The translations under genes were made by a program, and so were the position numbers. 10,676 bases of DNA, taken from the UHGV virus genome UHGV-0324942. The stretch is one strand, 5' to 3'. Below the pieces are notes generated by a model, which did not search any database, was not told where the DNA came from, and was given only the letters and a program-made list of their open reading frames with translations. This document shows, in pieces, positions 1 through 10,676 of this stretch (the first letter of the stretch is position 1; each line of letters opens with the position of its first letter). This stretch comes from a virus.

Positions 1-756
1 CGGTTTGCGGCGTTTCACGCTGACTTTTTTCTTTTTCCCGTAATTAAGATCAAGCCAGTAAGCGCGTACCCCCGTATACGCTTCGCGGTCAGCAATGCGG
101 AACTGATGGCGATCGCCACTGCTGCGCGTGATGGCGAACGAGGGCAACGGCTGGCCCTGTGCGTTCACGCCACCGCCTGGCATGATGAATAACAGATTAC
201 CGCTTTTTACCGTAGTGATTGCGCCCAGCATTTCCGCTATGCGCGTAAGGAAGGACATGTCGCTTTCTTCGGTCTGGTCAGCGTGGTCGATTTCAATATC
301 CATCAGCATTTCGCTGATTTGTGGTTTCAGACCGTACCGATGAGCGATGGCGGATACCACGCGCTCAACGGTCACATCATGCCAGGACACCTCACGTTTA
401 ACGTTAAATTCATCCCGAAAATCTGCGCTTCTGGCTGAAACAGTCAGCCTGTCCGGCGGTCCTTCGTGAGCGATTTCATCAACAATGTAAGTGCCTTTTT
501 CTGTCAGCGGTTCTCCTTTCCAGCCAATGAGAACCGTCAGGCGCGCGCCCCGTGGCGGTAGCTGCAACTGACCATCCGCATCATCCAGCGTGATGGTGAG
601 CTGGTCCGCCTCAAATCCCCGGTTGTCGGTCAGTGACAGGCTCATCAGGCACTCTGCCACGCCTGACAGCGTTTTACCCTCCGCGAGAATATCAAAATCC
701 GGCATTTTCACGGGGTCTGTGCCCTGACTGAGCAATTGCATGGTGGTGTCGGTCAT
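1..756 (-). CDS. D: P2 gpD-like tail protein ('late control gene D' family), N-terminal 252 codons; 3' end runs off the window
   Basis: Absent from the ORF track because no stop lies in the window. Manual minus-strand translation from ATG (756-754) is open to position 1: MTDTTMQLLSQGTDPVKMPDFDILAEGKTLSGVAECLMSLSLTDNRGFEADQLTITLDDADGQ...SARSADFRDEF...SWHDV...ITRSSGDRHQFRIADREAYTGVRAYWL.... Strong SD (GGGAGGGAG, rc of 759-768) about 6 nt upstream. Family assignment from remembered gpD-like motifs, not a computed alignment. Confidence 0.7.
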   Translation of the reverse strand, partial: MTDTTMQLLSQGTDPVKMPDFDILAEGKTLSGVAECLMSLSLTDNRGFEADQLTITLDDADGQLQLPPRGARLTVLIGWKGEPLTEKGTYIVDEIAHEGPPDRLTVSARSADFRDEFNVKREVSWHDVTVERVVSAIAHRYGLKPQISEMLMDIEIDHADQTEESDMSFLTRIAEMLGAITTVKSGNLLFIMPGGGVNAQGQPLPSFAITRSSGDRHQFRIADREAYTGVRAYWLDLNYGKKKKVSVKRRKP

Positions 757-913
757 CTGCTCCCTCCCTGTGCGGCATGGTCGCATGTGCGTGCGGAGGG
801 GGTTACTGCTTTTTGTTGTCGCCGTGGCGGGAGAACGGCGCAGGGGTGAGATTACGCGCGTGGTGGGTGATGATTGTTGCCGAATCATTTAACGGATACA
901 AGGGGCTGAAGCT
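757..913. promoter_or_regulatory. Divergent intergenic region between D (minus) and the sheath gene (plus); presumed to hold the late promoter(s)
   Basis: 157-bp GC-rich spacer between two divergent starts. No convincing sigma70 -35/-10 pair and no clean TGT-N12-ACA dyad found by eye, consistent with an activator-dependent late promoter. Position inferred from gene arrangement only. Confidence 0.3.
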
Positions 914-2098
914 ATGAGTGAAACTCGTTTTCATGGTGCCCGTGTCACGGAAAGTACCGACCTGGTAACAGCGATTAATGATGTTGATTCCAGCGTTATC
1001 GGTATCGTGGCAACGGCGGATGATGCGGATGCGGAGCTGTTCCCGCTGAACAAGCCCACACTGCTGACCCGCGTCAATGACGTGCTGGGAAAATGCGGGA
1101 CTACGGGGACGCTTTATCGTGCGCTTAAGGCTATCGCAGACCAGGTGAGCACAAAGGTGATCGTCGTTCGCGTGGCTGAACACAAAGAAGAAAACGGAAA
1201 GACGCAGGATCAACTGGTTATCGGTGGTTCTGAATCTGACGGCAGCTATACGGGGATGTATGCGCTGCTTGTTGCAGAGCAGGATGAAAGCATCGGATAC
1301 CGTCCGCGTATTCTGGCCGCGCCGGAGCTGGACACGGAGGCGGTGACAAAATCCCTGTGCGTGATTGCGGGTAAACTGCGCGCGTTTGTGTATGCCACAT
1401 GTCATGGTTGTAACACGATGGCTGAGGCGATTACCTACCGCCAGAAATTCAACGAACGTGAGGTGATGCTCTTATGGCCTGACTTCATCGCCTACAACCC
1501 GAAAAGTGGCAAAAACGAAACGTTCCCCGCGCCTGCTTATGCGTGCGGCCTTCGTGCGTACATTGACCATGAGCAGGGCTGGCACAAATCGCTGTCCAAC
1601 GTTCCGGTTAAAAATGTGCTGGGGATGTCGAGGCATGTGTTCTGGTCGTTACAGGCCGAAGACAGTGATGCCAACAGCCTCAACAACAAAGAAATCACGA
1701 CCATTATTCGTCGTAACGGGTTCCGCTTCTGGGGCAACCGCACACCGGAAACGAACGCCTACATCTTTGAGGTGTATACCCGAACCGCACAGGTGCTGGC
1801 TGATTCAATTGCGGAAGCGCAGTTTGAAACCATCGACAGTCCACTGACACCTGCGAACGTGAAGGATGTTATCAGCGCCATCAGAGCAAAACTGGATTCG
1901 CTGGTTACTGTCGGGAAACTGATTGGTGCGGAGTGCTGGTATGACGTGGTGGATAACAGCACCACGGGTTTACGTCAGGGGCGTGTGCGTATTCGCTACA
2001 AATATACGCCCGTTCCTCCGCTGGAAGACATGGAGCTTTACCAGTCGTTTACTGATGAATTCTTTGGTCCCGCATTTGCGGTGCTGGGAGGTGCCTGA
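914..2098 (+). CDS. FI: Contractile tail sheath protein (P2 gpFI-like)
   Basis: 394-aa ORF; SD AGGGG 8 nt upstream of ATG; length and sequence (e.g. ...ADDADAELFPLNKP...) match the P2 FI sheath family; stop TGA overlaps the next ATG (TGATG). Confidence 0.9.
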   Translation: MSETRFHGARVTESTDLVTAINDVDSSVIGIVATADDADAELFPLNKPTLLTRVNDVLGKCGTTGTLYRALKAIADQVSTKVIVVRVAEHKEENGKTQDQLVIGGSESDGSYTGMYALLVAEQDESIGYRPRILAAPELDTEAVTKSLCVIAGKLRAFVYATCHGCNTMAEAITYRQKFNEREVMLLWPDFIAYNPKSGKNETFPAPAYACGLRAYIDHEQGWHKSLSNVPVKNVLGMSRHVFWSLQAEDSDANSLNNKEITTIIRRNGFRFWGNRTPETNAYIFEVYTRTAQVLADSIAEAQFETIDSPLTPANVKDVISAIRAKLDSLVTVGKLIGAECWYDVVDNSTTGLRQGRVRIRYKYTPVPPLEDMELYQSFTDEFFGPAFAVLGGA

Positions 2099-2610
2099 TG
2101 GCTGTACCAAAACATCTTCGCTTTTTTACGTTGTTTGTGGATGGTGAAAACGAAGTGGGTAAAGTGACATCCGTCACGCCACCCAAACTGACGCGCAAAA
2201 CCGACAGCTATCGTGGTGGTGGCATGATGGGGGCGGTAAGTATTGATCTCGGTCTGGACGACTCCGCGCTTGATGCGAGTTTTGTCATGGGGGGAGCTGT
2301 TCGTGCGCTGTTCCTTAAATATGGCGGCACGATTGACGGCACGCTGCTGCGTTTTGCGGGTGAATACTACACCGATGCAGAAAGCGATCTGTATGAAATC
2401 GAGATGCGCGGGCGTGTGACGGAAATTGATATGGGGGAGGCCAAACAGGGCGAAGCCACATCACACACTTACGCTGTCAAAAACACCTACTACAAGCTGA
2501 GCGTTAACGATCGCCCGCTGTGGGAAATCGACCTGTTGAACCACATCTACCGGAAGGACGGCAAGGACATTGTGCCTGACCGCATTCGTTCCGCGCTTGG
2601 GCTTGGCTGA
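2098..2610 (+). CDS. FII: Tail tube protein (P2 gpFII-like)
   Basis: 170-aa ORF directly after the sheath gene with overlapping stop/start; SD GGAGGTG upstream; size and position typical of FII; double stop TGA-TAA at 2608-2613. Confidence 0.88.
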   Translation: MAVPKHLRFFTLFVDGENEVGKVTSVTPPKLTRKTDSYRGGGMMGAVSIDLGLDDSALDASFVMGGAVRALFLKYGGTIDGTLLRFAGEYYTDAESDLYEIEMRGRVTEIDMGEAKQGEATSHTYAVKNTYYKLSVNDRPLWEIDLLNHIYRKDGKDIVPDRIRSALGLG

Positions 2611-2622
2611 TAAGTAATATGC

Positions 2623-2643
2623 AGGCGGCGCAGTGCGTCGCCT
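2623..2643 (+). other. GC-rich stem-loop between tube and chaperone genes (AGGCGGCGC-agt-GCGTCGCCT), no U-tract
   Basis: 9-bp stem (8 Watson-Crick pairs plus one G-U) with a 3-nt loop, 13 nt after the FII stop and 9 nt before the SD of E. Not a canonical intrinsic terminator. Confidence 0.3.
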
Positions 2644-2665
2644 CTGACTGAAAAGGAGACAACTG

Positions 2666-3040
2666 ATGAAAGATATCGATACTGAAACCCGGAATAACAC
2701 CGTAGCGGATGATGTGACGTCAGGTGAGGATATGGCTGTCGAACGTGGTGTAAAACTTTCCCGGCCAATTGAGCGTGGTGGCGAAAAAATCACGTATGTG
2801 GAGATCACCGGGGCTATTGAACAGGCTGGATCCCTGCGTGGTCTGTCTCTGTCTGATGTGCTGAATCTGAAAGCGGATACCATGTTCACGCTGTTGCCTC
2901 GCGTGACCTCGCCACGACTGGATGAAGTGATGATTAAAAAAATGTCGTCACGCGATTTTATTCAGTTGTGCGCTGTGGCTGTAAATTTTATGAGCGAGCC
3001 AGACTCTGGCGCGAAGAGCGTGCAGGAGACGGCAGCGTAA
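2666..3040 (+). CDS. E: Tail assembly chaperone (P2 gpE-like)
   Basis: 124-aa ORF with SD AAGGAG (2653-2658) 7 nt upstream of ATG; lies between the tube and tape-measure genes, the conserved chaperone position. Confidence 0.75.
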   Translation: MKDIDTETRNNTVADDVTSGEDMAVERGVKLSRPIERGGEKITYVEITGAIEQAGSLRGLSLSDVLNLKADTMFTLLPRVTSPRLDEVMIKKMSSRDFIQLCAVAVNFMSEPDSGAKSVQETAA

Positions 3041-3204
3041 TCACCCTGGTGTGCTTTGAGCACATCGAAGATCTGGTGGCGGATATTGCCGCCATTTTTA
3101 ACTGGTCGCCCGCCGAAATCTTCATGATGACGCCCGGCGAAGTGGTTAGCTGGCGCGAGCGGGCGGCACTTCGCAGCGGGAATGCAGACAATGAAGACTC
3201 TTGA
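2666..3204 (+). CDS. E+E': Predicted E+E' fusion chaperone made by programmed -1 ribosomal frameshift (slip site near 2983-2989 or 2936-2942)
   Basis: The -1 frame is open from 2938 to a TGA at 3202-3204 and overlaps the tape-measure start. A canonical X_XXY_YYZ heptamer A_AAT_TTT sits in the E frame at 2983-2989; an A7 run at 2936-2942 is an alternative. The arrangement matches the conserved chaperone frameshift of long-tailed phages. Confidence 0.5.
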
Positions 3205-5998
3205 TATCCGGGTCGCTTTCAGCGCCGTTGACAGGCTGACCCGGCCTGCCGAAAACGCCCGCCGCCTGATGGGGCAGTTTGGTGACTCCATCCAGCGAAC
3301 GCAGGGGGCGATCAAAAATCTCGAGCGTCAGGCGCGTTCATTTGAGCGCGCCCGTGACGCTGTCAGTAAAGCGGATGCGGGCATCGTGAAAGCACGACGC
3401 CAGCTTAACGCCCTTAATCAGTTACAACGCACGGGTACAGTGCTCAGCGAAAAACAACAAAAGCTGATGCAGCAGTTAAGCACCCGGCTTGAACGCCTGA
3501 ATGAATCGCGCACACGGGAAATTCAGAAAATGCGGGAACTTGGCGGAGAGCTGAAACGCCACGGCATTTCCCTGACAGGCAGCGATAACACCATCCAGCA
3601 GGCCATCAGACGCACCGAACAGTACAACAACCAGCTTGAACGCGAACGGCAGGCGCTTGCGCGTGTAACGCGGGCGCGTGAGCGGTATTCGCGCGCGCAG
3701 GAAACCGCGGGAAAACTGAAAACAGGTGGTGCGCTGACAATTGGTGCGGCAGCGGCTGGCGGCTATGCTGCCGGGCGTTTTTTGCAGCCTGCGATCGGGT
3801 TCGGGAAAGAGATGTCCCGCGTTCAGGCACTGACGCGAATCGACAAAAACAGCCCGCAGTTTAAGGCGCTGCGTGAGCAGGCGTTAAAACTTGGCTCTGA
3901 AACACAGTTTACTGCGAGTGATGCCGCCAGTGGACAGAGCTTTCTGGCAATGGCTGGTTTTACTCCGCAGGCCATTCAGGCCGCATTGCCCGGTGTTCTT
4001 AATATGGCGCTGGCAGGTGGCGTCGAACTCGGCGAGACGGCGGATATAGGCTCCAATATCCTCACACAGTTCAACCTGACAGCCGATCAAATGGACCGGG
4101 TTGGCGATACGCTGACAGCGGCATTCACCCGGACCAATACTGATTTACGCGCGCTGGGCGAAACCATGAAGTATACCGGTCCGGTTGCCGCAAAACTTGG
4201 TATCAGTCTTGAAGAAGCGGCAGCCATGGCCGGGATGCTTGCCAATAATGGTCTTCGTGGAAGCGATGCTGGTACGGCCATGCGCGCAAGTCTGTCCCGC
4301 CTTGCATCACCGCCAAAAGCTGCGGCTGATGCACTGAAAGAGCTGGGGGTGTCAGTTGCTGACGCCAGAGGCAAAATGCGCCCGATGGAGGATGTGCTGC
4401 TTGATCTCTATAAGGCGACACAAAAATACGGACAGGTGGACCAGATCTCCTTCTTCAAGGACATCGCCGGAGAAGAGGCGTTCGTTGGTTTGCAGACGCT
4501 TGTTGCGGCGGCTGGTTCAGGAGAGCTGCAAAAACTGACCAGAGAATTGCAGGGGGCAAGGGGAGAGGCCGATCGCGTTGCAAAAGTAATGGCCGATAAT
4601 CTTGATGGGGACCTGAAAAATCTCGACAGCGCATGGGAAGGTCTTCGTATTCGCATCAGTGATCTGGTTGACGGTCCGCTGCGTTCTGTCACGCAGTGGC
4701 TCACGCGGGTGCTTGAAAAAATCACCTCGCTGGCGCAGGCCCATCCGGTACTGACGCGCCAGCTACTGATAGCAGGCGGTGCGTTGCTGGCAATGACTGC
4801 AACGGTTGGCTCGTTGTCGCTGGCTATTGGTGTGCTTGCTGGCCCGCTGGCAAAACTGCGTCTTGGCTTTTCCCTCCTGACCGGTTCAATGAATGCTGTC
4901 AGACTCCTGCCAGCACTATGGGGAATGGTGACGGGTTCCGTTTCGTTACTGGGGGGCGCTATCGGGGCGTTGTTCAGTCCGGTCGGCCTTATCGTGGCTG
5001 CGCTTGCCGGAGCTGCCGTTCTCATCTGGAAATACTGGGATCCCATCAGGGCATTTTTTGCCGGGGTGTTCAGCGGGATTATGGAAAGGCTGACCCCGTT
5101 GCGCGAAACCTTTGAACGGTTTGGTCCTGTTTTTGACGCAATCGGAAGCGGGATCAGCCAGGTGTTTAACTGGTTTAAATCGCTGTTGTCACCGATGGAG
5201 TCCAGCAAGGAAACGCTGGATAAATGTACCAGTGCTGGCGAGATATTCGGTAACGTTCTTGGCGGTGCGTTACAACTTGTTCTGACGCCTGCAAAAATGT
5301 TGCTGGATACGCTGGCGTGGATACTTGAAAAACTTGGCGTCCTTCCGGATGAAGCGGAAAGGGCGCGCAAGAAAATCGAAGACGCACAGCGTGCGGCCAT
5401 TCTTCAGGACAAGGTTGCCTTACTTCAGGGGGACCTGGCGAAAATCAATCCGCCGAAGCCTGTGGAAAATGGCAATGGCACCGGAGGTGATAAACCCAAA
5501 GACAACAAACCGCTCACAGACAGCAATACCGGGACGCTGCGCAGACTCAGCAAAATTGCTGATAACACAGGTAAGCTGGTTGATGAGACGAAAAAACGCA
5601 TTGGCCCCGGCGATATTGTCTTTAAGAACCTGCCCCGCGCACTTGCTGTTCGTGGGGAGTGGCAGGAGCGGAAGATTGCGCAGGTCAGTAAGCCTGCCCC
5701 CGCAATTAATATCACACCCGTGGTCCCGGCTCCGCTGCCTCCGGCGCTGATCCCTGTTGTTGCGGCCAGCTCCCGCCCGGTGGCGGAGGCCATACAATCT
5801 CCAGTGGCATCAGTTCCTGTAACTTCCCGTAACCGGGAGCCTGTTGCCTCCGGATTTGGTGGTGAAATTCATGTTCATCTGCATAACGTTGTTACGCAGA
5901 ATCCCCGCGAACTGGCGAAACTGGTCGGTGAAATGGTCAGGGCAGAAATGGAACGGCGCGCCCGTGCCGGGCGTGGCAGTTTTTACGATAAAGATTGA
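3182..5998 (+). CDS. T: Tail tape measure protein (P2 gpT-like)
   Basis: 938-aa ORF; coiled-coil-like charged N-terminus, conserved tape-measure core (...ALGETMKYTGPVAAKLGISLEEAAAMAGMLANNGLRGSDAGTAMRASLSRL...), long hydrophobic Gly/Ala/Leu-rich central segment and Pro/Val-rich C-terminus. The true start may be the ATG at 3191. Confidence 0.9.
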   Translation: MQTMKTLDIRVAFSAVDRLTRPAENARRLMGQFGDSIQRTQGAIKNLERQARSFERARDAVSKADAGIVKARRQLNALNQLQRTGTVLSEKQQKLMQQLSTRLERLNESRTREIQKMRELGGELKRHGISLTGSDNTIQQAIRRTEQYNNQLERERQALARVTRARERYSRAQETAGKLKTGGALTIGAAAAGGYAAGRFLQPAIGFGKEMSRVQALTRIDKNSPQFKALREQALKLGSETQFTASDAASGQSFLAMAGFTPQAIQAALPGVLNMALAGGVELGETADIGSNILTQFNLTADQMDRVGDTLTAAFTRTNTDLRALGETMKYTGPVAAKLGISLEEAAAMAGMLANNGLRGSDAGTAMRASLSRLASPPKAAADALKELGVSVADARGKMRPMEDVLLDLYKATQKYGQVDQISFFKDIAGEEAFVGLQTLVAAAGSGELQKLTRELQGARGEADRVAKVMADNLDGDLKNLDSAWEGLRIRISDLVDGPLRSVTQWLTRVLEKITSLAQAHPVLTRQLLIAGGALLAMTATVGSLSLAIGVLAGPLAKLRLGFSLLTGSMNAVRLLPALWGMVTGSVSLLGGAIGALFSPVGLIVAALAGAAVLIWKYWDPIRAFFAGVFSGIMERLTPLRETFERFGPVFDAIGSGISQVFNWFKSLLSPMESSKETLDKCTSAGEIFGNVLGGALQLVLTPAKMLLDTLAWILEKLGVLPDEAERARKKIEDAQRAAILQDKVALLQGDLAKINPPKPVENGNGTGGDKPKDNKPLTDSNTGTLRRLSKIADNTGKLVDETKKRIGPGDIVFKNLPRALAVRGEWQERKIAQVSKPAPAINITPVVPAPLPPALIPVVAASSRPVAEAIQSPVASVPVTSRNREPVASGFGGEIHVHLHNVVTQNPRELAKLVGEMVRAEMERRARAGRGSFYDKD

Positions 5999-6010
5999 GG
6001 AGTCATGGCC

Positions 6011-6499
6011 ATGATGATGATCTACGGCATGTTTGTTTTTGAGCTGCGCACGTTGCCGCATCAGCAGTTACAGCAAAATAAAAGCTGGCGGCATGTGAAA
6101 AATGAACGCGTTAACCGTTCAGCAAGCTGGCAGTATATCGGGGCAGGCGATGATCGCATCGTTCTTTCTGGTGTGCTTTATCCTGAAATTACAGGTGGCG
6201 AAGTGTCGCTTTCGTTGCTGACCACGCAGGCATATACAGGACGCCCCTGGCCTCTGATTGATGGTGTCGGGCAGATTTACGGCATGTATGTACTGACTGA
6301 AACGAATACGACCCGCTCCGAGTTTGATCGCTACGGTAAGGCGAAAAAGATAGAATTTTCACTGACTCTTGAACGCTGTGATGAGGATTTGCGGGAGCGC
6401 CTGCAATCCTCATCGTTCAGCGATATGTTGTCCGGCTTCAAAGATAAGGTGACATCATCCCTTAATAGCGCGGCCAGCTCAGTTAAGGGGCTGCTCTGA
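6011..6499 (+). CDS. U: P2 gpU-like tail protein
   Basis: ORF track gives 6005-6499 (MAMMMIYGMFVFELRTLP...). SD GAGGAG (5997-6002) overlaps the T stop and is 8 nt from the ATG at 6011, giving an MMM N-terminus as in gpU; position immediately after the tape-measure gene. Confidence 0.8.
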   Translation: MMMIYGMFVFELRTLPHQQLQQNKSWRHVKNERVNRSASWQYIGAGDDRIVLSGVLYPEITGGEVSLSLLTTQAYTGRPWPLIDGVGQIYGMYVLTETNTTRSEFDRYGKAKKIEFSLTLERCDEDLRERLQSSSFSDMLSGFKDKVTSSLNSAASSVKGLL

Positions 6500-6575
6500 T
6501 TTAACGTATGTCGCCAATTTCCTGATGAAGGTGACTGGCGACTTGCTGTTGTATGTCCTTCTCAGAAAATTGTTT

Positions 6576-6604
6576 TTGAATAACAAACAACAGGATTTTA
6601 TAAT
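6576..6604 (+). promoter_or_regulatory. Candidate sigma70 promoter for the acetyltransferase gene: -35 TTGAAT (6576-6581), 17-bp spacer, -10 TATAAT (6599-6604)
   Basis: Hexamers and spacing read directly; perfect -10, 4/6 match at -35; about 50 nt upstream of the SD and GTG start. An imperfect palindrome TTGTTT-N9-AAACAA (6570-6590) overlaps the -35. Confidence 0.45.
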
Positions 6605-6655
6605 CTCTTAACCTTATAACATGTGTGGTCTGAAATAATAATTAAGGAGATTATC

Positions 6656-7228
6656 GTGCTGTCTTACCTAATGGCAATTCACTTTGTTTTATTTGGGAAC
6701 TCTACTAATTTAAAAAACTTCTGGAAACATGAAGTAATTCGGCGGAAACGTATGGATATCTGGAGGCTTTTAAGAGAGAAAAAGCAGCGTAACAGGAATT
6801 TCCTTTTCTGGTGGCGGTTGGCTAACGAAATGTATATTAATGGTAATAAATTACATAAGAAAGCAGCCAAGAAGTTAAACAGTAAAATAATTAACAAATT
6901 TGGTTGCGAAATTGGATTGGGCGCAAATATTGGAAAAGGGTTAACAATTCCCCATCATGCTGGAATTGTTGTTCATTTTGCTGTTGATGCTGGTGAAAAT
7001 CTGGTGTTACGACAGAATACGACCATTGGACAGATAGATGGTGACATACCTGGTTCAAGAGTAAAAATTGGTAGCAACGTTGATATCGGAGCTAATTGTT
7101 GCATCATTGGATTATCCCGTAAAATTGGGGATAATGTAAAAATAGGTGCAATGTCTTTTATAAATAAAGATATACCATCGAACTGCACATATATAACTAA
7201 AAAGAGCGGTGCTGTATTGTATAAATAG
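6656..7228 (+). CDS. Hexapeptide-repeat (left-handed beta-helix) acetyltransferase, serine-acetyltransferase/WcaB-like; AT-rich cargo gene
   Basis: ORF track 6623-7228; preferred start is GTG 6656, 6 nt after a perfect SD AAGGAG (6644-6649); ATG 6671 and 6752 are alternatives. Repeated [LIV]-G-x-x-x-x hexapeptide units (...IGLGANIGKGLTIPHHAGIVVHFAVDAGENLVL...VKIGSNVDIGANCCIIGL...IGDNVKIGAMSFI...). Composition is markedly more AT-rich than the flanking phage genes. Confidence 0.8.
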   Translation: MLSYLMAIHFVLFGNSTNLKNFWKHEVIRRKRMDIWRLLREKKQRNRNFLFWWRLANEMYINGNKLHKKAAKKLNSKIINKFGCEIGLGANIGKGLTIPHHAGIVVHFAVDAGENLVLRQNTTIGQIDGDIPGSRVKIGSNVDIGANCCIIGLSRKIGDNVKIGAMSFINKDIPSNCTYITKKSGAVLYK

Positions 7229-7235
7229 AGTACAT

Positions 7236-7273
7236 AAAGCCATCGATATTTCTATCGATGGCTTTTTCTTTTT
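7236..7273. terminator. Intrinsic terminator hairpin at the convergent junction (stem GCCATCGATA / TATCGATGGC, loop TTTC, then T5-C-T5)
   Basis: Perfect 10-bp stem (7239-7248 / 7253-7262), extendable by A:T pairs, followed by a T-tract on the plus strand; the minus-strand side has a weaker UUUAUG tail. Sits between the acetyltransferase stop (7228) and the G stop (7272-7274). Confidence 0.7.
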
Positions 7274-7850
7274 ATTGTGGGGCGACTGGCCACTCAATAT
7301 CTGCTGCTACTGTTGTATCAACACGATGCAACAATACTCGATATGTCTTCCATGCAGCCAGTAACGATGTCTCTTCCTCCGTCGCAATATCTAAATCTAT
7401 AGCATCCTGAAGTGGTGCAATATGCTCACTGGCTACCTGCATCAGGCTGTTTTTTGTTTCTTCCGCCTCCCTTATCCGAAATAGTTTTTCTGCTTCTGCA
7501 TCTTTCACCCAGGATGTGCCGTTCCACTTCTGATACTCTCCATACGGCGACAACCAGGTAACATTTTCCGGTAATGGACCGAGTTCAGAAATAAATAACG
7601 AGTCCCCTGATGCCACGTCATAAACCGTTTTACCCCGATGGTCTTCAACGAGATGCCACGATGCCTCATCACTGTTGAAAACGGCCACGAAGCCAGCCGG
7701 AATATCTGGCGGGGCAATATCGGTACTGTTTGCAGGCAGACCTGTATGAGGTGGAATGTATGCATCACCTTCACCAATAAACTCATTGGTTCCGGTCAGT
7801 AGATTATAAATTTTTATGGTCCGTGAGTGTTCACTCATTCTGAATGTCAT
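7272..7850 (-). CDS. G: Tail fibre assembly chaperone (lambda Tfa-like; occupies the P2 gpG position)
   Basis: 192-aa ORF; N-terminus [51 protein letters not shown]... closely matches the remembered lambda Tfa N-terminus; ATG overlaps the fibre stop (TAATG). Confidence 0.88.
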
Positions 7851-9976
7851 TATGCAAGCCTCACAATATAGTTAAATGCGATGTTTTTTACGGTGTTTTC
7901 TTTGTTACCCGTAGCGTTAACGGTGATGGTGTGTCCGTGGGGACCAATAATGACAGAATGGGCATGAGCACCAATGCCGATAGTGTGGTTATGGGCACCG
8001 ATATATACATTGTGAGCATGCCCGCCTGCGCTCGACGTGGTACCAGTACCTAACGCAGCGTTATAACCGGCTGATACACCATTCCCCGCGCCAGTGTGAC
8101 CAACAGGTATATTGTGTGAATGATTTCCAGCGCTATTCGTAGTTTTTGTGCCGTAATCAAATGAACTGGTCGTTTTAGTACCGTAATCAAACGACGATGT
8201 GGTTTTCGTCCCCAAATCCGTACTGGATGCGCTGGCGCTGTGGGTGTGCGATTTAATGCCGTCCTGTTCCTGAGACAATACGGCACGACCACTGCCGGGC
8301 TTGCCCTTAATCGTCCAGCCACGCATATCAGGAATAACGCCTGACGGATAAGCGACTGCAAGTTTCGGGTATGCAGATTTGTCAAAAGTCTGCCCCTGCA
8401 TCAGGGCATAGCCAGACGGAACGGTATCTGATGGCCACGGGATTGGTGCACCGACTGGATAAAACTCTGCAGGAGGATGAGCCGAGGTGTAAAGCTGCGC
8501 CCACGGCGACCAGTTTGCGTCGGTCGTATCCCGTCGTGAACGAATAAATGCCGGAGCATGAGCACCGCTTGTACCACTCCAGCCGATGAGTAACTCACCT
8601 TCGCCAACGGCTGTCATCCCTTTCAGGTGAATGATATTTCCATACGCTGTTGGATATCCGTTGTTATACACCTCGTATAACTCAAGACCTGTTGCCCCCT
8701 GCGTATTGTCTGTCAGCGCGGTTACCCGACCTTTTGAAGACAGATTAACTGATGATACTGCTGTTCCACCTGACGGTAATGCCCCGATCTCTGATGCCGT
8801 TGGCTTATTTCTGGAGTTATAGTCCCTTCGCCAGCCAGGTGAATAATCTGTTCCGTGATTAATATAGGTAAACTGGGCGTTAGTTGTTCCGCCACCAGTG
8901 GAGGTAGTCGGTGTGGTAATGCGGATCGTCATCGCTGACTTTATCCCCATTACTTCAATGACAGCTCCTGCGAGATGAATATTACCGCAGCCAGTATCAG
9001 TAATGATTTTATTATTGCCATAAGACCAGGAACCCTTGCACATCCAGTATGGATGGTTAAATGCTCCCTGAGAATCCAGCCACTCGATAAACTGTGCAGT
9101 CGTCCAGTCTCCTGTTGTTGTGCTTACTGACCCACCGAAGGCACGGCTGGCACCAATATTTTTCGTAAAGGTGTCTTTGCCAGGGATATCCGCACCGTTC
9201 TTATCTTTCTGCAGACGTTTCTCAGCATTGTCATTGGCTGCTTTTACTGCCTTTGGCGTTGCTGCCAGCGTTTCAGACGTGCTGTTGGTCGCGCTGCTTA
9301 GCTGGACTATCCCTTTCTGTGCTGTCGTTGCATCCTGTGCGGTGTATTTCCCGTCAGCCAGGTCATACGCGGCCTTAACTGCTTTTGGCGTTGCCGCCAG
9401 CGTTTCAGAATCGCTGTTAGTGGCGCTACTGAGTTGAACAAAGCCTTTTGCGGTCAGCGAGGCATCCGGGTGACATCGTGACTGTTCATGCTCTTTCAGT
9501 TTGTTATCCACGTAATCCACTGTGGCCATCACCATGGTGTTATCCACGGTAAGCGCCACAGTGGCAGTGCTGGATACGGTCAGAATGGTGCGAAATGTTT
9601 GTGCACGTCCGGACCCTTCGGCAACGGCTGGCTTGTAACTTTCGGCAGTATTGCCCACCGCGATTAAATCGCCGTGCTCATCAAACACACCAATTTCCCG
9701 GATCCAGAATCCGCCCGTTTCTGGAGGAATAACCAGCTCCGCAATAATGCGGTTCTGATGTGTTGCGTCCAGGATGACGCGATTAACAGTGTGTCGCCAC
9801 ACCTCATGCACCAGACGGGTCTGCTTACTGTCTGGTGTGGGCAACGCGCCGCCACCGTCGCCCACGGCCATATGAGTCAGGCGGACAGGCTTACCATCTG
9901 GCGCGGCTGCCTGAGCTAATTTTTTGGCACCTGTATCGGTGATAACGGTTTTAAATTTTCGTGTTGTGGTACTCAT
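7850..9976 (-). CDS. H: Tail fibre protein, mosaic: P2 gpH-like N-terminus with a lambda Stf/T4 gp37-like His-box distal tip
   Basis: 708-aa ORF; N-terminal region (...MAVGDGGG...HEVWRH...[10 protein letters not shown]...) and duplicated [21 protein letters not shown] motif are typical of gpH; C-terminus carries [10 protein letters not shown] tandem repeats and five HxH boxes (HSHN, HAHN, HNHT, HAHS, HGHT), ending ...[11 protein letters not shown]. Confidence 0.9.
8141..8233 (-). repeat. About three imperfect tandem copies of a 30-bp unit inside the fibre gene (encode [10 protein letters not shown] repeats)
   Basis: Plus-strand units tttgtgccgtaatcaaatgaactggtcg / tttagtaccgtaatcaaacgacgatgtgg / tttcgtccccaaatccgtactggatgcg read directly. 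Confidence 0.6.
9236..9445 (-). repeat. Two roughly 75-bp direct repeats with 132-bp period inside the fibre gene (encode the duplicated [23 protein letters not shown] motif)
   Basis: Near-identical stretches (...ctttggcgttgc[t/c]gccagcgtttcaga...) at about 9236-9313 and 9368-9445; they also create the spurious plus-strand ORF 9120-9437 with an internally repeated peptide. Confidence 0.6.
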
Positions 9977-9978
9977 GC

Positions 9979-10509
9979 TTAATCGTCCGGATAAATGGTA
10001 ATAACTTCACCGTCATGAGTTGCCGCCGCTGCAAAAATATCCCCCGGAATTTCCTGAATGATATTCAGCCCTGTCATGTGGCGGCTGACCGGACGGGCAT
10101 CAGCAATCAACCGCTCCATTTCCAGATACATTTCCTCCGTCACGCCACTGTCCAGTGTGCCGACTTCAACGGTAAATGTTCCCGGTTCTCCGCCGAACTC
10201 CCACCACTCAGACACGCGAATGAGGTATCCCAGCGGCTCAATGGCCCTGCGCAGTGCGCTGATGGTCCCTTTGTGTCGGTGTGTCAGCCATGCATCACGA
10301 ATCACCTGTCGTTTTGTCTCTTCCGGCCAGTTGCGATCCCAGCGGTCAACGGAAAATGCCCAGGCGAGATAAGGCAGCAGGTGCACCGGGCAGGTGTCCG
10401 GCGACCACAGCGTGTTGAGGTCTACCGGGATGTCTGTAATGCGCGTTCCGACAGCTTCGGCACAACGCATGAAACTGCTGGCTGATGGTGGTAACAGTGA
10501 ATTACTCAT
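9979..10509 (-). CDS. I: Baseplate protein (P2 gpI-like)
   Basis: ORF track gives a GTG start at 10542, but the ATG at 10509 yields [12 protein letters not shown]..., matching the gpI N-terminus, and the upstream codons belong to the J reading frame; internal ...[15 protein letters not shown]...ERLIADARP... resembles gpI. Confidence 0.85.
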
Positions 10510-10676
10510 TGCGCCCACCTTCGCTGATGGTGAACGACTCACAGCGCGCCGCCTGTATGTCGCTGATGGCCATATTCTGTGTGGGTTCGATTATCTCCAC
10601 GCGTTGCACACCGTGCACATGCAGTGCGGCAGCAATGGCGGACAACGCCACGTCCTGACCGATAAGCCCCTGCTCA
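10502..10676 (-). CDS. J: Baseplate assembly protein (P2 gpJ-like), C-terminal 57 codons; 5' end outside the window
   Basis: Minus-strand frame open from the window edge to TAA (10504-10502): ...[57 protein letters not shown]. Its last codons overlap the I start by 8 nt (ATGAGTAA). Identity inferred mainly from position upstream of I. Confidence 0.55.
   Translation of the reverse strand, partial: EQGLIGQDVALSAIAAALHVHGVQRVEIIEPTQNMAISDIQAARCESFTISEGGRNE

What the first reader, a model, noticed from the sequence alone, without database searches (positions are those of the whole stretch)
6500..7275. AT-rich single-gene island encoding a hexapeptide-repeat acetyltransferase at the tail-fibre/sheath junction
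A compact unit of promoter, strong SD, one 190-aa ORF and hairpin terminator sits between the end of the tape-measure/U operon and the convergent fibre genes. It is far more AT-rich than the flanking structural genes, suggesting recent horizontal acquisition. The position next to G matches the P2 Z/fun locus, a recognised accessory and anti-phage gene hotspot. The protein has a serine-acetyltransferase-like beta-helix (compare CysE, WcaB, NodL, NeuO). It could O-acetylate a surface polysaccharide, giving lysogenic conversion or receptor masking, or act on another substrate as a defence or toxin-like function. This is the strongest candidate for an uncharacterised accessory system in the window.
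Basis: partly seen in the sequence, partly recalled or inferred. Interest (0 to 1): 0.65.

Follow-up and report, generated by a model that had tools for sequence, protein, structure and literature searches.

The report
Prophage acetyltransferase paired with tail-fibre chaperone
A real, well-conserved but uncharacterised single-gene insert in an E. coli P2-family prophage encodes a sugar-type acetyltransferase that travels with the phage's tail-fibre genes. It most likely acetylates the cell-surface lipopolysaccharide so that the lysogen's phage receptor is masked.

Summary
Window 6500-7271 is a 35% GC island in a roughly 54% GC tail region. It carries a promoter-like site, an AAGGAG ribosome-binding site, one 190-aa ORF (GTG 6656-7228) and a strong terminator hairpin, between gpU and the convergent tail-fibre-assembly gene (tfa).

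The protein is a left-handed beta-helix acetyltransferase with a serine-acetyltransferase-like fold. It fails every CysE, WcaB and EpsC equivalog threshold and lacks the serine-binding motif. It is under purifying selection (dN/dS 0.04-0.17) and stays intact in the decayed O157:H7 copy of this prophage.

- **Position:** the phage is P88-like, not P2-ordered. Relatives carry a DNA invertase plus an alternative fibre cassette in this slot, so the Z/fun analogy is loose.
- **Linkage:** the gene sits immediately before a convergent tfa in 60 of 69 viral contigs, on at least three phage backbones (P88-like, P1-like and long side-tail-fibre phages). The two proteins co-diverge (100/98% down to 46/39%), so acquisition is not recent.
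- **Relatives:** one lies in an LPS-core (waa) cluster next to WaaZ. Others sit beside GT25 or GT9 LPS glycosyltransferases in prophages.

Best reading: an envelope-glycan, probably LPS-core, O-acetyltransferase causing lysogenic conversion or receptor masking. Function is untested and no PADLOC 2.0 (2023) defence model matches.

The parts
6510..6542 (+). Hairpin just after the gpU stop; probable end or insulator of the FI-U late operon
   Evidence: Folds at -22 kcal/mol with z = -4.9. A hairpin of different sequence occupies the same place in the 70%-allele locus L024. Homology with P88-like phages ends at 6505.
6576..6604 (+). Sigma-70-like promoter TTGAAT-17-TATAAT for the acetyltransferase gene (predicted)
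   Evidence: Matches 10 of 12 positions. It is identical in the O157 copy and in L021/L024, whose coding sequence is only about 70% identical at protein level. Not tested experimentally.
6644..6649 (+). Shine-Dalgarno AAGGAG, 6 nt upstream of the GTG start
   Evidence: Read directly from the sequence; conserved in L020, L021 and L024.
6656..7228 (+). 190-aa SAT-like left-handed beta-helix acetyltransferase (phrog_2154; RefSeq 'serine acetyltransferase' WP_000954200)
   Evidence: H100 is the putative catalytic His, E85 the acidic partner, and residues 126-135 form a hypervariable loop.
7236..7265 (.). 13-bp-stem hairpin between the two convergent genes. It is an intrinsic terminator with a U-run on the + strand and has a weaker tail on the - strand.
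   Evidence: z = -7.9 on + and -7.75 on -. It is 97% conserved against L024.
7272..7850 (-). Tail-fibre assembly chaperone (gpG/Tfa, Caudo_TAP), the conserved convergent partner of the acetyltransferase gene
   Evidence: Pfam E = 1.1e-40. It is the immediate convergent neighbour in 60 of 69 viral contigs, and its identity co-varies with that of the acetyltransferase.
7850..9223 (-). C-terminal (receptor-binding) part of tail fibre H. It belongs to the same exchanged module as tfa and the acetyltransferase.
   Evidence: Homology with P88-like phages breaks at 6505 and resumes at 9224. P1-like phage-plasmids share 6664-8493 at 94% identity.

Best explanation
The gene encodes a soluble, acetyl-CoA-dependent O-acetyltransferase. 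It has a trimeric-type left-handed beta-helix with a short helical N-domain. It is expressed from its own promoter in the lysogen.

It most likely acetylates an envelope glycan while that glycan is still being built at the cytoplasmic face of the inner membrane. The most likely acceptor is the LPS core oligosaccharide. The acetyl group would change the surface that the linked fibre/Tfa module, and similar phages, recognise. That would give lysogenic conversion: superinfection exclusion, and less loss of progeny on cell debris.

**Shown**
- The gene is real, selected and mobile.
- It has the SAT-like fold, with the catalytic His and the acidic residue kept.
- It lacks the CysE serine-binding motif.
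- It is tightly and anciently linked to tfa and the fibre tip.
- Some relatives lie in LPS-core gene contexts.

**Inferred**
- The acceptor.
- Expression in the lysogen.
- The receptor-masking consequence.
For: **1. Enzyme class.**
- NCBIfam best hits are polysaccharide-type and serine acetyltransferases: EpsC 6e-21, CysE 1e-16, WcaB 2.5e-14.
- The closest solved structures are serine acetyltransferases, at 2e-24 with a family profile.
- The AF2 model (pLDDT 83.8) has five N-terminal helices plus a beta-helix. Foldseek gives TM 0.6-0.7 to serine acetyltransferases.
- The host's own WcaB is 35% identical over the beta-helix and shares the E...HH motif.

**2. Catalytic residues.** H100 aligns with CysE His158 and is kept in 50 of 51 family members. 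Position 85 is D or E in all 51.

**3. Not serine-specific.** The CysE D-R-H-P loop is replaced by the most variable stretch of the family (residues 126-135), Asp157 is Pro, and no SATase_N domain is found.

**4. Selection.** dN/dS is 0.042 against the O157:H7 copy and 0.15-0.17 against P1-like copies. The ORF is intact in O157:H7 although D, T and the fibre genes there are broken by IS elements or a frameshift.

**5. Linkage to the receptor-binding module.**
- The module exchanged against P88-like phages is acetyltransferase + tfa + fibre tip, 6506-9223.
- The same block lies inside the invertible C-segment of P1-like phage-plasmids.
- A convergent tfa follows immediately in 60 of 69 viral contigs, with co-varying identity.
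- A Buttiauxella homologue is convergent with a different fibre type.

**6. LPS link through relatives at 45-52% identity that nest inside the family tree.**
- Leminorella: RfaP-WaaB-WaaI-RfaY-WaaZ-[homologue]-RfaL.
- Halomonas: WaaZ + homologue.
- Xenorhabdus prophage: homologue + GT25, convergent with the tail fibre.
- Morganella prophage: homologue + GT9 in the same position.
- Pseudomonas: GT2-homologue-membrane protein-UDP-sugar dehydrogenase.

**7. Compatibility with a soluble enzyme.** LPS core is assembled on the cytoplasmic side, so a soluble CoA-dependent enzyme can reach it (established knowledge of the Waa pathway).
Against: - No experiment exists. The one paper that discusses the gene says its role is unknown.
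- The LPS-context relatives are in a different subclade, at 45-52% identity, and the acceptor loop is hypervariable. Specificity may therefore differ.
- In the window there is no glycosyltransferase partner.
- Many family members are orphan single-gene islands among housekeeping genes, or sit on plasmids. That pattern fits any universally available acceptor, including a small metabolite.
- The 70% allele sits beside a 90-97% identical tfa, so allele and chaperone are not strictly matched.
- Linkage to tfa could be partly hitch-hiking, because tfa is a known recombination joint.
- Promoter activity is only predicted, and AT-rich DNA in E. coli is often silenced by H-NS.
Confidence: 0.5

Rival explanations
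1. It acetylates a different envelope glycan, such as an O-antigen repeat unit, enterobacterial common antigen, colanic acid or capsule. It would act on the undecaprenyl-linked intermediate or the nucleotide sugar rather than on LPS core. The outcome is the same: lysogenic conversion.
For: The best family hits are EPS and colanic-acid enzymes: EpsC at 74.8 bits, WcaB at 53 bits, and 35% identity to the host WcaB. The Pseudomonas homologue lies in a GT2/UDP-sugar-dehydrogenase operon. The hypervariable acceptor loop suggests varied glycan acceptors.
Against: The gene occurs in E. coli of many O-types, including O157, O26, O111, O103, O55 and the O104-type 55989. It also occurs as an orphan in several genera. 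Both facts favour a conserved acceptor. The clearest chromosomal contexts are waa/WaaZ, GT25 and GT9, which are all core-related.
Confidence: 0.2
2. It is a genuine, feedback-insensitive serine O-acetyltransferase. It would make O-acetylserine and so rewire the host cysteine/CysB regulon for the benefit of prophage or host.
For: RefSeq names it so. The nearest solved structures are all CysE. The catalytic His and acidic residue are kept. Orphan single-gene islands would work anywhere with a universal substrate.
Against: It scores 61 bits against a TIGR01172 cutoff of 210.65, and 36 against 397 for PRK11132. There is no SATase_N hit. Asp157 is Pro, and the DRHP serine-binding loop is absent and hypervariable. 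The C-terminus ends in Lys, not the CysK-binding Ile. Homologues inside a waa cluster or beside LPS glycosyltransferases make no sense for cysteine synthesis.
Confidence: 0.08
3. It is an intracellular anti-phage or toxin-like function. It would acetylate a protein, nucleic acid or small molecule of an invader, or an antibiotic in the manner of a xenobiotic acetyltransferase.
For: It is an accessory gene in a variable phage slot, and the analogous P2 Z/fun locus is a recognised defence locus. Copies lie next to hok/gef, HicAB or VapBC-like genes in some elements.
Against: There is no PADLOC match even at E up to 1. No CatB/Vat-type family appears among the NCBIfam hits. Known acetyltransferase toxins are GNAT enzymes, not beta-helix enzymes (established knowledge). 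The tight pairing with tfa and fibre, and the LPS contexts, point to the surface instead.
Confidence: 0.1
4. It serves the phage's own morphogenesis, for example by acetylating the fibre or Tfa, or it is merely a hitch-hiker at a recombination joint with no present function.
For: The stop-to-stop spacing to tfa is conserved at 43-54 nt, and the two genes co-diverge.
Against: Close P88-like phages make fibres without it. Lambdoid phages share the tfa and fibre but lack it. It is kept intact where the fibre gene is deleted, in O157:H7. dN/dS of 0.04-0.17 excludes a functionless passenger. Homologues also occur far from any phage.
Confidence: 0.05

Closest known systems
WcaB (colanic acid) and EpsC-type short SAT-like polysaccharide O-acetyltransferases
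   Same: Length of about 160-200 aa. A short helical N-terminus followed by a left-handed beta-helix. Glu/Asp plus His-His active-site motif. 35% identity to E. coli WcaB over 103 aa.
   Different: It scores far below both equivalog cutoffs: 53 against 196, and 74.8 against 150. It has a longer N-terminal helical region and family-specific motifs (FWWRLANE, RQNTTIG, GAMSF). It is carried by phages and plasmids as a lone gene rather than in a polysaccharide operon.
Serine O-acetyltransferase CysE
   Same: Overall fold and catalytic His/acidic pair. CysE proteins are the closest solved structures.
   Different: About 90 residues shorter. No SATase_N domain hit, no serine-binding Asp157/Arg192-His193 motif and no C-terminal Ile tail. 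It scores 61 bits against a cutoff of 210.65.
NeuO of E. coli K1 prophage CUS-3 (a phage-borne beta-helix O-acetyltransferase of polysialic acid; recalled from the literature, not re-read here)
   Same: A soluble hexapeptide-repeat acetyltransferase carried by a prophage next to the receptor-binding tail protein gene, and modifying a surface glycan of the lysogen.
   Different: NeuO belongs to a different beta-helix subfamily and is phase-variable through 5' heptanucleotide repeats. No tandem repeat is present here, and the acceptor here is unknown.
Oac/OacB-type seroconverting acetyltransferases of Sf6, Sf101 and D3 (acyltransferase-3 family)
   Same: The proposed biological role: a prophage-encoded O-acetylation of LPS that changes phage and antibody recognition (background).
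   Different: Those are integral membrane proteins acting after export. This protein is predicted soluble and all helix/beta-helix, with no AT3 match.
Receptor-blocking exclusion genes placed next to receptor-binding genes (T5 llp, phi80/N15 cor; recalled from the literature)
   Same: The genetic logic: the masking function is linked to the adsorption module and moves with it.
   Different: Those are small lipoproteins that block an outer-membrane protein. This would be an enzyme that chemically alters a glycan.
P2 Z/fun accessory locus
   Same: A variable cargo slot downstream of, and convergent with, the fibre-assembly gene G (for its status as a defence locus).
   Different: Here the other flank is gpU, not FI, because the FI-U block is inverted as in P88-like phages. 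Relatives hold an invertase and fibre cassette there. No sequence relation to Z/fun was tested.

Membership tests
Serine O-acetyltransferase CysE (EC 2.3.1.30) | Score at or above the curated equivalog cutoff (TIGR01172 210.65; PRK11132 397) | tested here: not met
   61.1 and 36.1 bits.
Serine O-acetyltransferase CysE (EC 2.3.1.30) | Catalytic His158 with Asp143 in the beta-helix domain | tested here: met
   H100 is kept in 50 of 51 members and position 85 is D or E in all 51. Both align to the DIHP and DHATG motifs of solved serine acetyltransferases.
Serine O-acetyltransferase CysE (EC 2.3.1.30) | Serine/cysteine-binding residues Asp157, Arg192 and His193 (the G-D-R-H-P loop) and the N-domain Asp92 | tested here: not met
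   Asp157 aligns to Pro99. The DRHP loop aligns to residues 126-135, the most variable stretch of the family, where Arg135 is present in only 11 of 51 members. The N-domain cannot be aligned. Residue roles are taken from the CysE structural literature, from memory.
Serine O-acetyltransferase CysE (EC 2.3.1.30) | N-terminal SATase_N helical domain of about 140 aa, and a C-terminal tail ending in Ile that binds CysK | tested here: not met
   No SATase_N Pfam hit at E up to 0.01. The model has only 82 helical residues. The protein ends ...AVLYK.
Serine O-acetyltransferase CysE (EC 2.3.1.30) | Acetylation of L-serine in vitro, or complementation of cysE | not testable with these tools
   Needs an enzyme assay or genetics.
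WcaB / EpsC polysaccharide acetyltransferases | Equivalog HMM score (WcaB 196 or 194.65; EpsC 150) | tested here: not met
   53, 51.9 and 74.8 bits. BLASTP against the host WcaB gives 35% identity over 103 aa, E = 3e-15.
WcaB / EpsC polysaccharide acetyltransferases | Gene located in a polysaccharide biosynthesis cluster | tested here: inconclusive
   Not so in the window, where it is a lone gene in a prophage. It is so for relatives in the Leminorella waa cluster, beside Halomonas WaaZ and in a Pseudomonas GT2 operon.
Hexapeptide-repeat (left-handed beta-helix) acyltransferase superfamily | Hexapeptide repeats, beta-helix fold | tested here: met
   Pfam Hexapep at E = 3e-05, just under the gathering score (23.9 against 27). 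Profile matches to many beta-helix transferases. AF2 model and Foldseek hits agree.
PHROG phrog_2154 (phage protein family, function unknown) | Profile match over the full length | tested here: met
   E = 3.3e-86, residues 13-190 against profile positions 3-181 of 185.
Phage seroconverting O-acetyltransferases of the Oac / acyltransferase-3 type | Multi-pass membrane acyltransferase-3 domain | tested here: not met
   No such Pfam hit. The model is a soluble helical bundle plus beta-helix.
NeuO-type phase-variable prophage acetyltransferase | Beta-helix enzyme next to the receptor-binding gene, with 5' heptanucleotide repeats that give phase variation | tested here: inconclusive
   Enzyme class and placement are similar. 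No tandem repeats are found in 6400-7400. Direct sequence comparison with NeuO was not done.
Known anti-phage defence systems (PADLOC-DB 2.0) | Match to any defence-system protein model | tested here: not met
   0 families at E up to 1.
Phage 'moron' (autonomous accessory unit) | Own promoter and terminator, deviant base composition, absent from close relatives | tested here: met
   Searches cover the signals and GC. Searches show its absence in P88-like relatives. Promoter and terminator activity are predicted, not measured.
P2 Z/fun locus | Cargo slot between G and FI of a P2-ordered genome | tested here: not met
   The flanks are gpU and G, and FI-U is inverted relative to P2. The resemblance is positional only, on the G side.

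The most novel reading that the evidence does not exclude
Acetyltransferase, Tfa and fibre tip form a co-evolving 'adsorb-and-mask' cassette that moves among P2-like, P1-like and lambdoid phages. The enzyme would be a soluble SAT-like O-acetyltransferase of the LPS core (inner-core/Kdo region, by analogy with the WaaZ-linked relatives). As far as the papers searched here show, no phage-borne enzyme of that kind has been described. It would match receptor masking to each receptor-binding module, and the hypervariable loop 126-135 would set acceptor specificity.
Probability: 0.25. Interest if true: 0.65.

Novelty: new member of a known kind. Interest (0 to 1): 0.42.

Why it matters
The gene sits in about a tenth of complete E. 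coli genomes (513 of 5,426, though the collection over-samples EHEC). These include O157:H7, O26, O111, O103, O55:H7 and the O104-type strain 55989. It is also found in P1-like phage-plasmids. Public annotation calls it 'serine acetyltransferase', which is probably wrong.

If it acetylates LPS core or another envelope glycan, it would alter phage susceptibility. That matters for phage therapy, biocontrol and phage typing of EHEC. It might also alter LPS antigenicity. It would add a soluble SAT-like enzyme class to the known repertoire of lysogenic conversion.

The conserved pairing with the fibre chaperone gene gives a simple, testable rule: the masking gene travels with the adsorption module. 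It is also a useful marker for annotating tail-fibre cassettes.

Tried and rejected
- **Defence system:** PADLOC finds nothing.
- **Known RNA element in the island:** Rfam finds none there. The only hit in the window, IS009, lies inside tfa.
- **Phase-variation repeats as in neuO:** none found.
- **An inversion or rearrangement peculiar to this prophage:** rejected. The FI-U orientation is native to P88-like phages, and gene D is intact in the window.
- **Literature:** ten full-text searches found no functional study. The gene is mentioned only as unexplained cargo in JL22, and a 'serine acetyltransferase' is listed as cargo of C. rodentium phiNP. The hotspot papers do not mention acetyltransferases.
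- **Proteomics of O157:H7:** could not be mapped to this gene.
- **Further homologue contexts (Orbus, Scandinavium, Obesumbacterium):** orphan islands that add nothing on function.
- **Association with E. coli core type (R1-R4, K-12):** not attempted, because the tools do not return full genome lists.
Full report
**1. What the window is**

The window is the tail region of a P2-family prophage of E. coli.
- Positions 6400-7400 match E. coli 55989 at 99.9%. There the element lies between yecA and the tRNA-Gly-Cys-Leu cluster.
- Pfam identifies gpU (6005-6499, +), a Caudo_TAP tail-fibre assembly protein (7272-7850, -), the fibre H (7850-9976, -) and gpI (9979-10542, -).
- Sheath, tube, E and tape measure lie upstream on the + strand.
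- The gene order is not that of P2. The FI-U block points towards the fibre genes, and D lies on the other strand to its left.
- This order is native to P88-like phages (Xuanwuvirus, Gemsvirus), which match 1-6505 and 9224-10676 at 92-96%.
- Gene D reads through intact within the window.

**2. Check of the observation**

The island is real.
- GC is 0.350 over 6500-7271 and 0.356 in the ORF (GC3 0.325). FI-U is at 0.545, and no other 772-nt window outside the region falls below 0.464.
- The ORF runs from GTG 6656 to 7228 (190 aa), preceded by AAGGAG.
- RefSeq makes the same call. P1-like copies have ATG at the same codon.
- A TTGAAT-17-TATAAT site lies at 6576-6604. A 13-bp hairpin with a U-run lies at 7236-7265, with folding z = -7.9.
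- The promoter scan alone is not above chance. However, promoter, leader and SD are 90-93% conserved in loci whose coding region is only about 70% identical at protein level.
- A second hairpin follows the gpU stop (z = -4.9). A hairpin of different sequence sits at the same place in the diverged locus.
- The title's 'fibre/sheath junction' is wrong. The junction is gpU/tfa.

**3. The protein**

- Pfam Hexapep is just below threshold.
- NCBIfam gives EpsC 6e-21, CysE 1e-16 and WcaB 2.5e-14. All are far below their equivalog cutoffs.
- PHROGs places it in phrog_2154, function unknown, at 3e-86. PADLOC gives nothing.
- The closest solved structures are CysE enzymes, at 1e-12 for the single sequence and 2e-24 for the family profile.
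- An AlphaFold model built on 51 homologues has pLDDT 83.8 and pTM 0.81. It shows five helices (residues 2-82) followed by a beta-helix, and matches serine acetyltransferases at TM 0.6-0.7 and 19-28% identity.
- The catalytic His is kept (H100, 50 of 51 members), as is the acidic partner (position 85, D or E in all 51).
- CysE Asp157 is Pro here. The G-D-R-H-P serine-binding loop corresponds to residues 126-135, the most variable part of the family.
- There is no SATase_N hit, and the C-terminus ends in Lys rather than Ile.
- The host's own WcaB is 35% identical over the beta-helix and shares the Glu...His-His motif.
- The protein is therefore an SAT-like acetyltransferase but not a CysE, WcaB or EpsC orthologue.

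**4. It is a functional gene**

- dN/dS is 0.042 against the O157:H7 copy (dS 0.16) and 0.15-0.17 against P1-like copies (dS 0.31-0.38).
- In O157:H7 the same prophage at the same site is decayed. D is cut by IS30, the tape measure is frameshifted, and the fibre and head genes are replaced by an IS3 remnant. The acetyltransferase ORF is nonetheless intact.

**5. Distribution and mobility**

- The full island is present in 513 of 5,426 complete E. coli genomes. These include O157:H7, O55:H7, O26:H11, O111:H8, O103:H2 and 55989. There are 66 places on plasmids.
- Close P88-like phages lack it. After gpU they carry a DNA invertase and an alternative fibre tip with its tfa.
- Against those phages, the replaced block is 6506-9223: acetyltransferase, tfa and the C-terminal part of the fibre.
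- P1-like phage-plasmids (JL22, Ro157c2YLVW) share 6664-8493 at about 94%. There the gene lies between the two tfa genes, inside the inverted repeats of the C-segment.
- The JL22 authors state that the reason for its presence is unknown.
- Several lambdoid phages share the tfa and fibre but not the acetyltransferase.

**6. A conserved gene pair**

- Of 80 IMG/VR contigs encoding relatives, 69 hold at least 700 nt downstream. In 60 of these the next gene is a convergent tfa, usually 43-54 nt away stop to stop.
- The pair is found on at least three backbones. These are P88-like (gpU upstream, gpI beyond the fibre), P1-like, and contigs with long Stf-type fibres. It also occurs on contigs with unrelated upstream genes.
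- Identities to the window's two proteins fall together (acetyltransferase/Tfa): 100/98, 87/92, 85/68, 65/45, 63/42, 46/39%.
- In five further contigs the gene follows fibre and tfa on the same strand.
- A 67% homologue in Buttiauxella is convergent with a phage_tail_N fibre at a prophage end.
- The linkage is therefore old. This contradicts 'recent acquisition'. Low GC relative to the flanks is a family-wide trait.

**7. An allelic pattern**

A 70% allele (P0008) occupies the same slot in a more distant P88-like prophage. Against it:
- the promoter and first 25 codons (6545-6724) are 90-93% identical;
- the 3' end, terminator and tfa (7145-7900) are 90-98% identical;
- the centre of the gene is only 47-78% identical, lowest around the variable loop.

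This looks like cassette exchange, or diversifying pressure on the acceptor-binding part. I did not test selection on the loop.

**8. Clues to the acceptor**

Relatives at 45-52% identity nest inside the family in a neighbour-joining tree.
- In Leminorella grimontii the homologue lies in the LPS core cluster: RfaP, WaaB, WaaI, RfaY, WaaZ, homologue, then RfaL on the other strand. All neighbours score above their NCBIfam equivalog cutoffs except WaaZ on one of its two models.
- In a Halomonas genome it again follows a WaaZ gene.
- In a Xenorhabdus prophage it is followed by a GT25 LPS glycosyltransferase (123 bits). In the matching Morganella prophage it is followed by a GT9 heptosyltransferase-family gene (32.6 bits against a cutoff of 22). 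In both cases it is convergent with the tail fibre.
- A Pseudomonas homologue sits between a GT2 gene and a UDP-sugar dehydrogenase.
- Other members are orphan low-GC islands among housekeeping genes, or lie on plasmids such as EPEC bfp plasmids.

**9. Interpretation**

The best-supported model is a soluble O-acetyltransferase of an envelope glycan, most likely LPS core.
- LPS core is built on the cytoplasmic side, where an acetyl-CoA enzyme can act.
- LPS core is also the classical receptor of P1-, P2- and Mu-type fibres (established knowledge).
- Linkage to the fibre tip and its chaperone fits a receptor-masking or exclusion role that moves with the adsorption module. T5 llp and phi80 cor do this by other means. 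NeuO does it next to the CUS-3 tailspike.

The steps from context to acceptor, and from acetylation to exclusion, are inferences.

**10. Rivals**

- Another glycan as acceptor.
- A true serine acetyltransferase. The motif and HMM tests and the waa contexts argue against this.
- An intracellular defence or toxin. There is no supporting evidence.
- A role in fibre assembly, or mere hitch-hiking. Phages that do without the gene, its retention where the fibre is lost, and low dN/dS all argue against this.

**11. Novelty and verdict**

The enzyme class and the idea of phage-borne acetylation are known, and the gene is already annotated, probably misleadingly. What is new here:
- the demonstration that it is not a CysE;
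- the conserved pairing with tfa across phage types;
- the LPS-core context of relatives.

I rate it a new member of a known kind, of moderate interest, with a clear experimental path.

Noticed in passing
window 7309-7507 (-): Rfam family RF02111 'IS009' matches at 177 bits (gathering score 117) over its full length. The match lies entirely inside the tfa/gpG coding sequence. This 'sRNA' family therefore appears to be a conserved piece of tail-fibre-assembly genes.
   Followed up: partly
window 1-6499 versus 7272-10676: The FI-FII-E-T-U block is inverted relative to canonical P2 order. D is on the opposite strand (756 to the window start, intact). This arrangement is native to P88-like phages.
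   Followed up: yes
L004 8251-10955 (P88); L005 9525-11546: In close relatives the slot after gpU holds a DNA invertase plus an alternative fibre tip and tfa, that is, an invertible host-range segment. In the window this is replaced by the acetyltransferase and a single fixed fibre tip.
   Followed up: yes
window 6545-7900 versus L024 4900-6250: Mosaic identity to a 70% allele in the same slot. The promoter and 5' end, and the 3' end, terminator and tfa, are 90-98% identical. The middle of the acetyltransferase gene is 47-78% identical, lowest at the variable loop.
   Followed up: partly
L021-L023 5617-6605: In three loci with the 70% allele, a tfa fragment (87 aa) and a SAM-dependent methyltransferase gene (222 aa) are inserted between the acetyltransferase and the full tfa. 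This is a second cargo gene at the same joint.
   Followed up: no
L020 (E. coli O157:H7 ATCC 43894) 6800-16300: The O157:H7 copy of this prophage is decayed. IS30 cuts D, the tape measure is frameshifted, and the fibre and head genes are replaced by an IS3 remnant. The acetyltransferase ORF is intact.
   Followed up: yes
L028 3469-9815 (Leminorella grimontii): The waa LPS-core cluster carries a family member between waaZ and waaL. From memory, waaK sits in that position in the Salmonella-type cluster; this was not checked here. A Halomonas MAG (L036) also has WaaZ followed by the homologue.
   Followed up: partly
L011-L014: A 50%-identical homologue lies on EPEC plasmids about 2.3 kb downstream of the bfp pilus genes (prepilin peptidase, SLT and neighbours), among IS66 and other transposase remnants.
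   Followed up: no
L006-L010: A 57% homologue sits at the edge of another E. coli prophage next to copA. It lies after the fibre genes, an HP1_ORF34-like gene and a hok/gef toxin gene.
   Followed up: no
window 6510-6542 (+): A stable hairpin lies directly after the gpU stop (z = -4.9). A hairpin of unrelated sequence occupies the same position in L024, which suggests a conserved operon end.
   Followed up: partly
window 7850-8300 (-), C-terminus of fibre H: The fibre tip contains tandem [10 protein letters not shown] repeats and a run of H-x-H motifs ([32 protein letters not shown]), seen in the translation.
   Followed up: no
window 2666-3204 (+): gpE (2666-3040) is followed by an overlapping ORF (2968-3204). 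E. coli 55989 annotates a separate 'GpE family' protein there. This is presumably the usual P2 E/E' frameshift pair.
   Followed up: no
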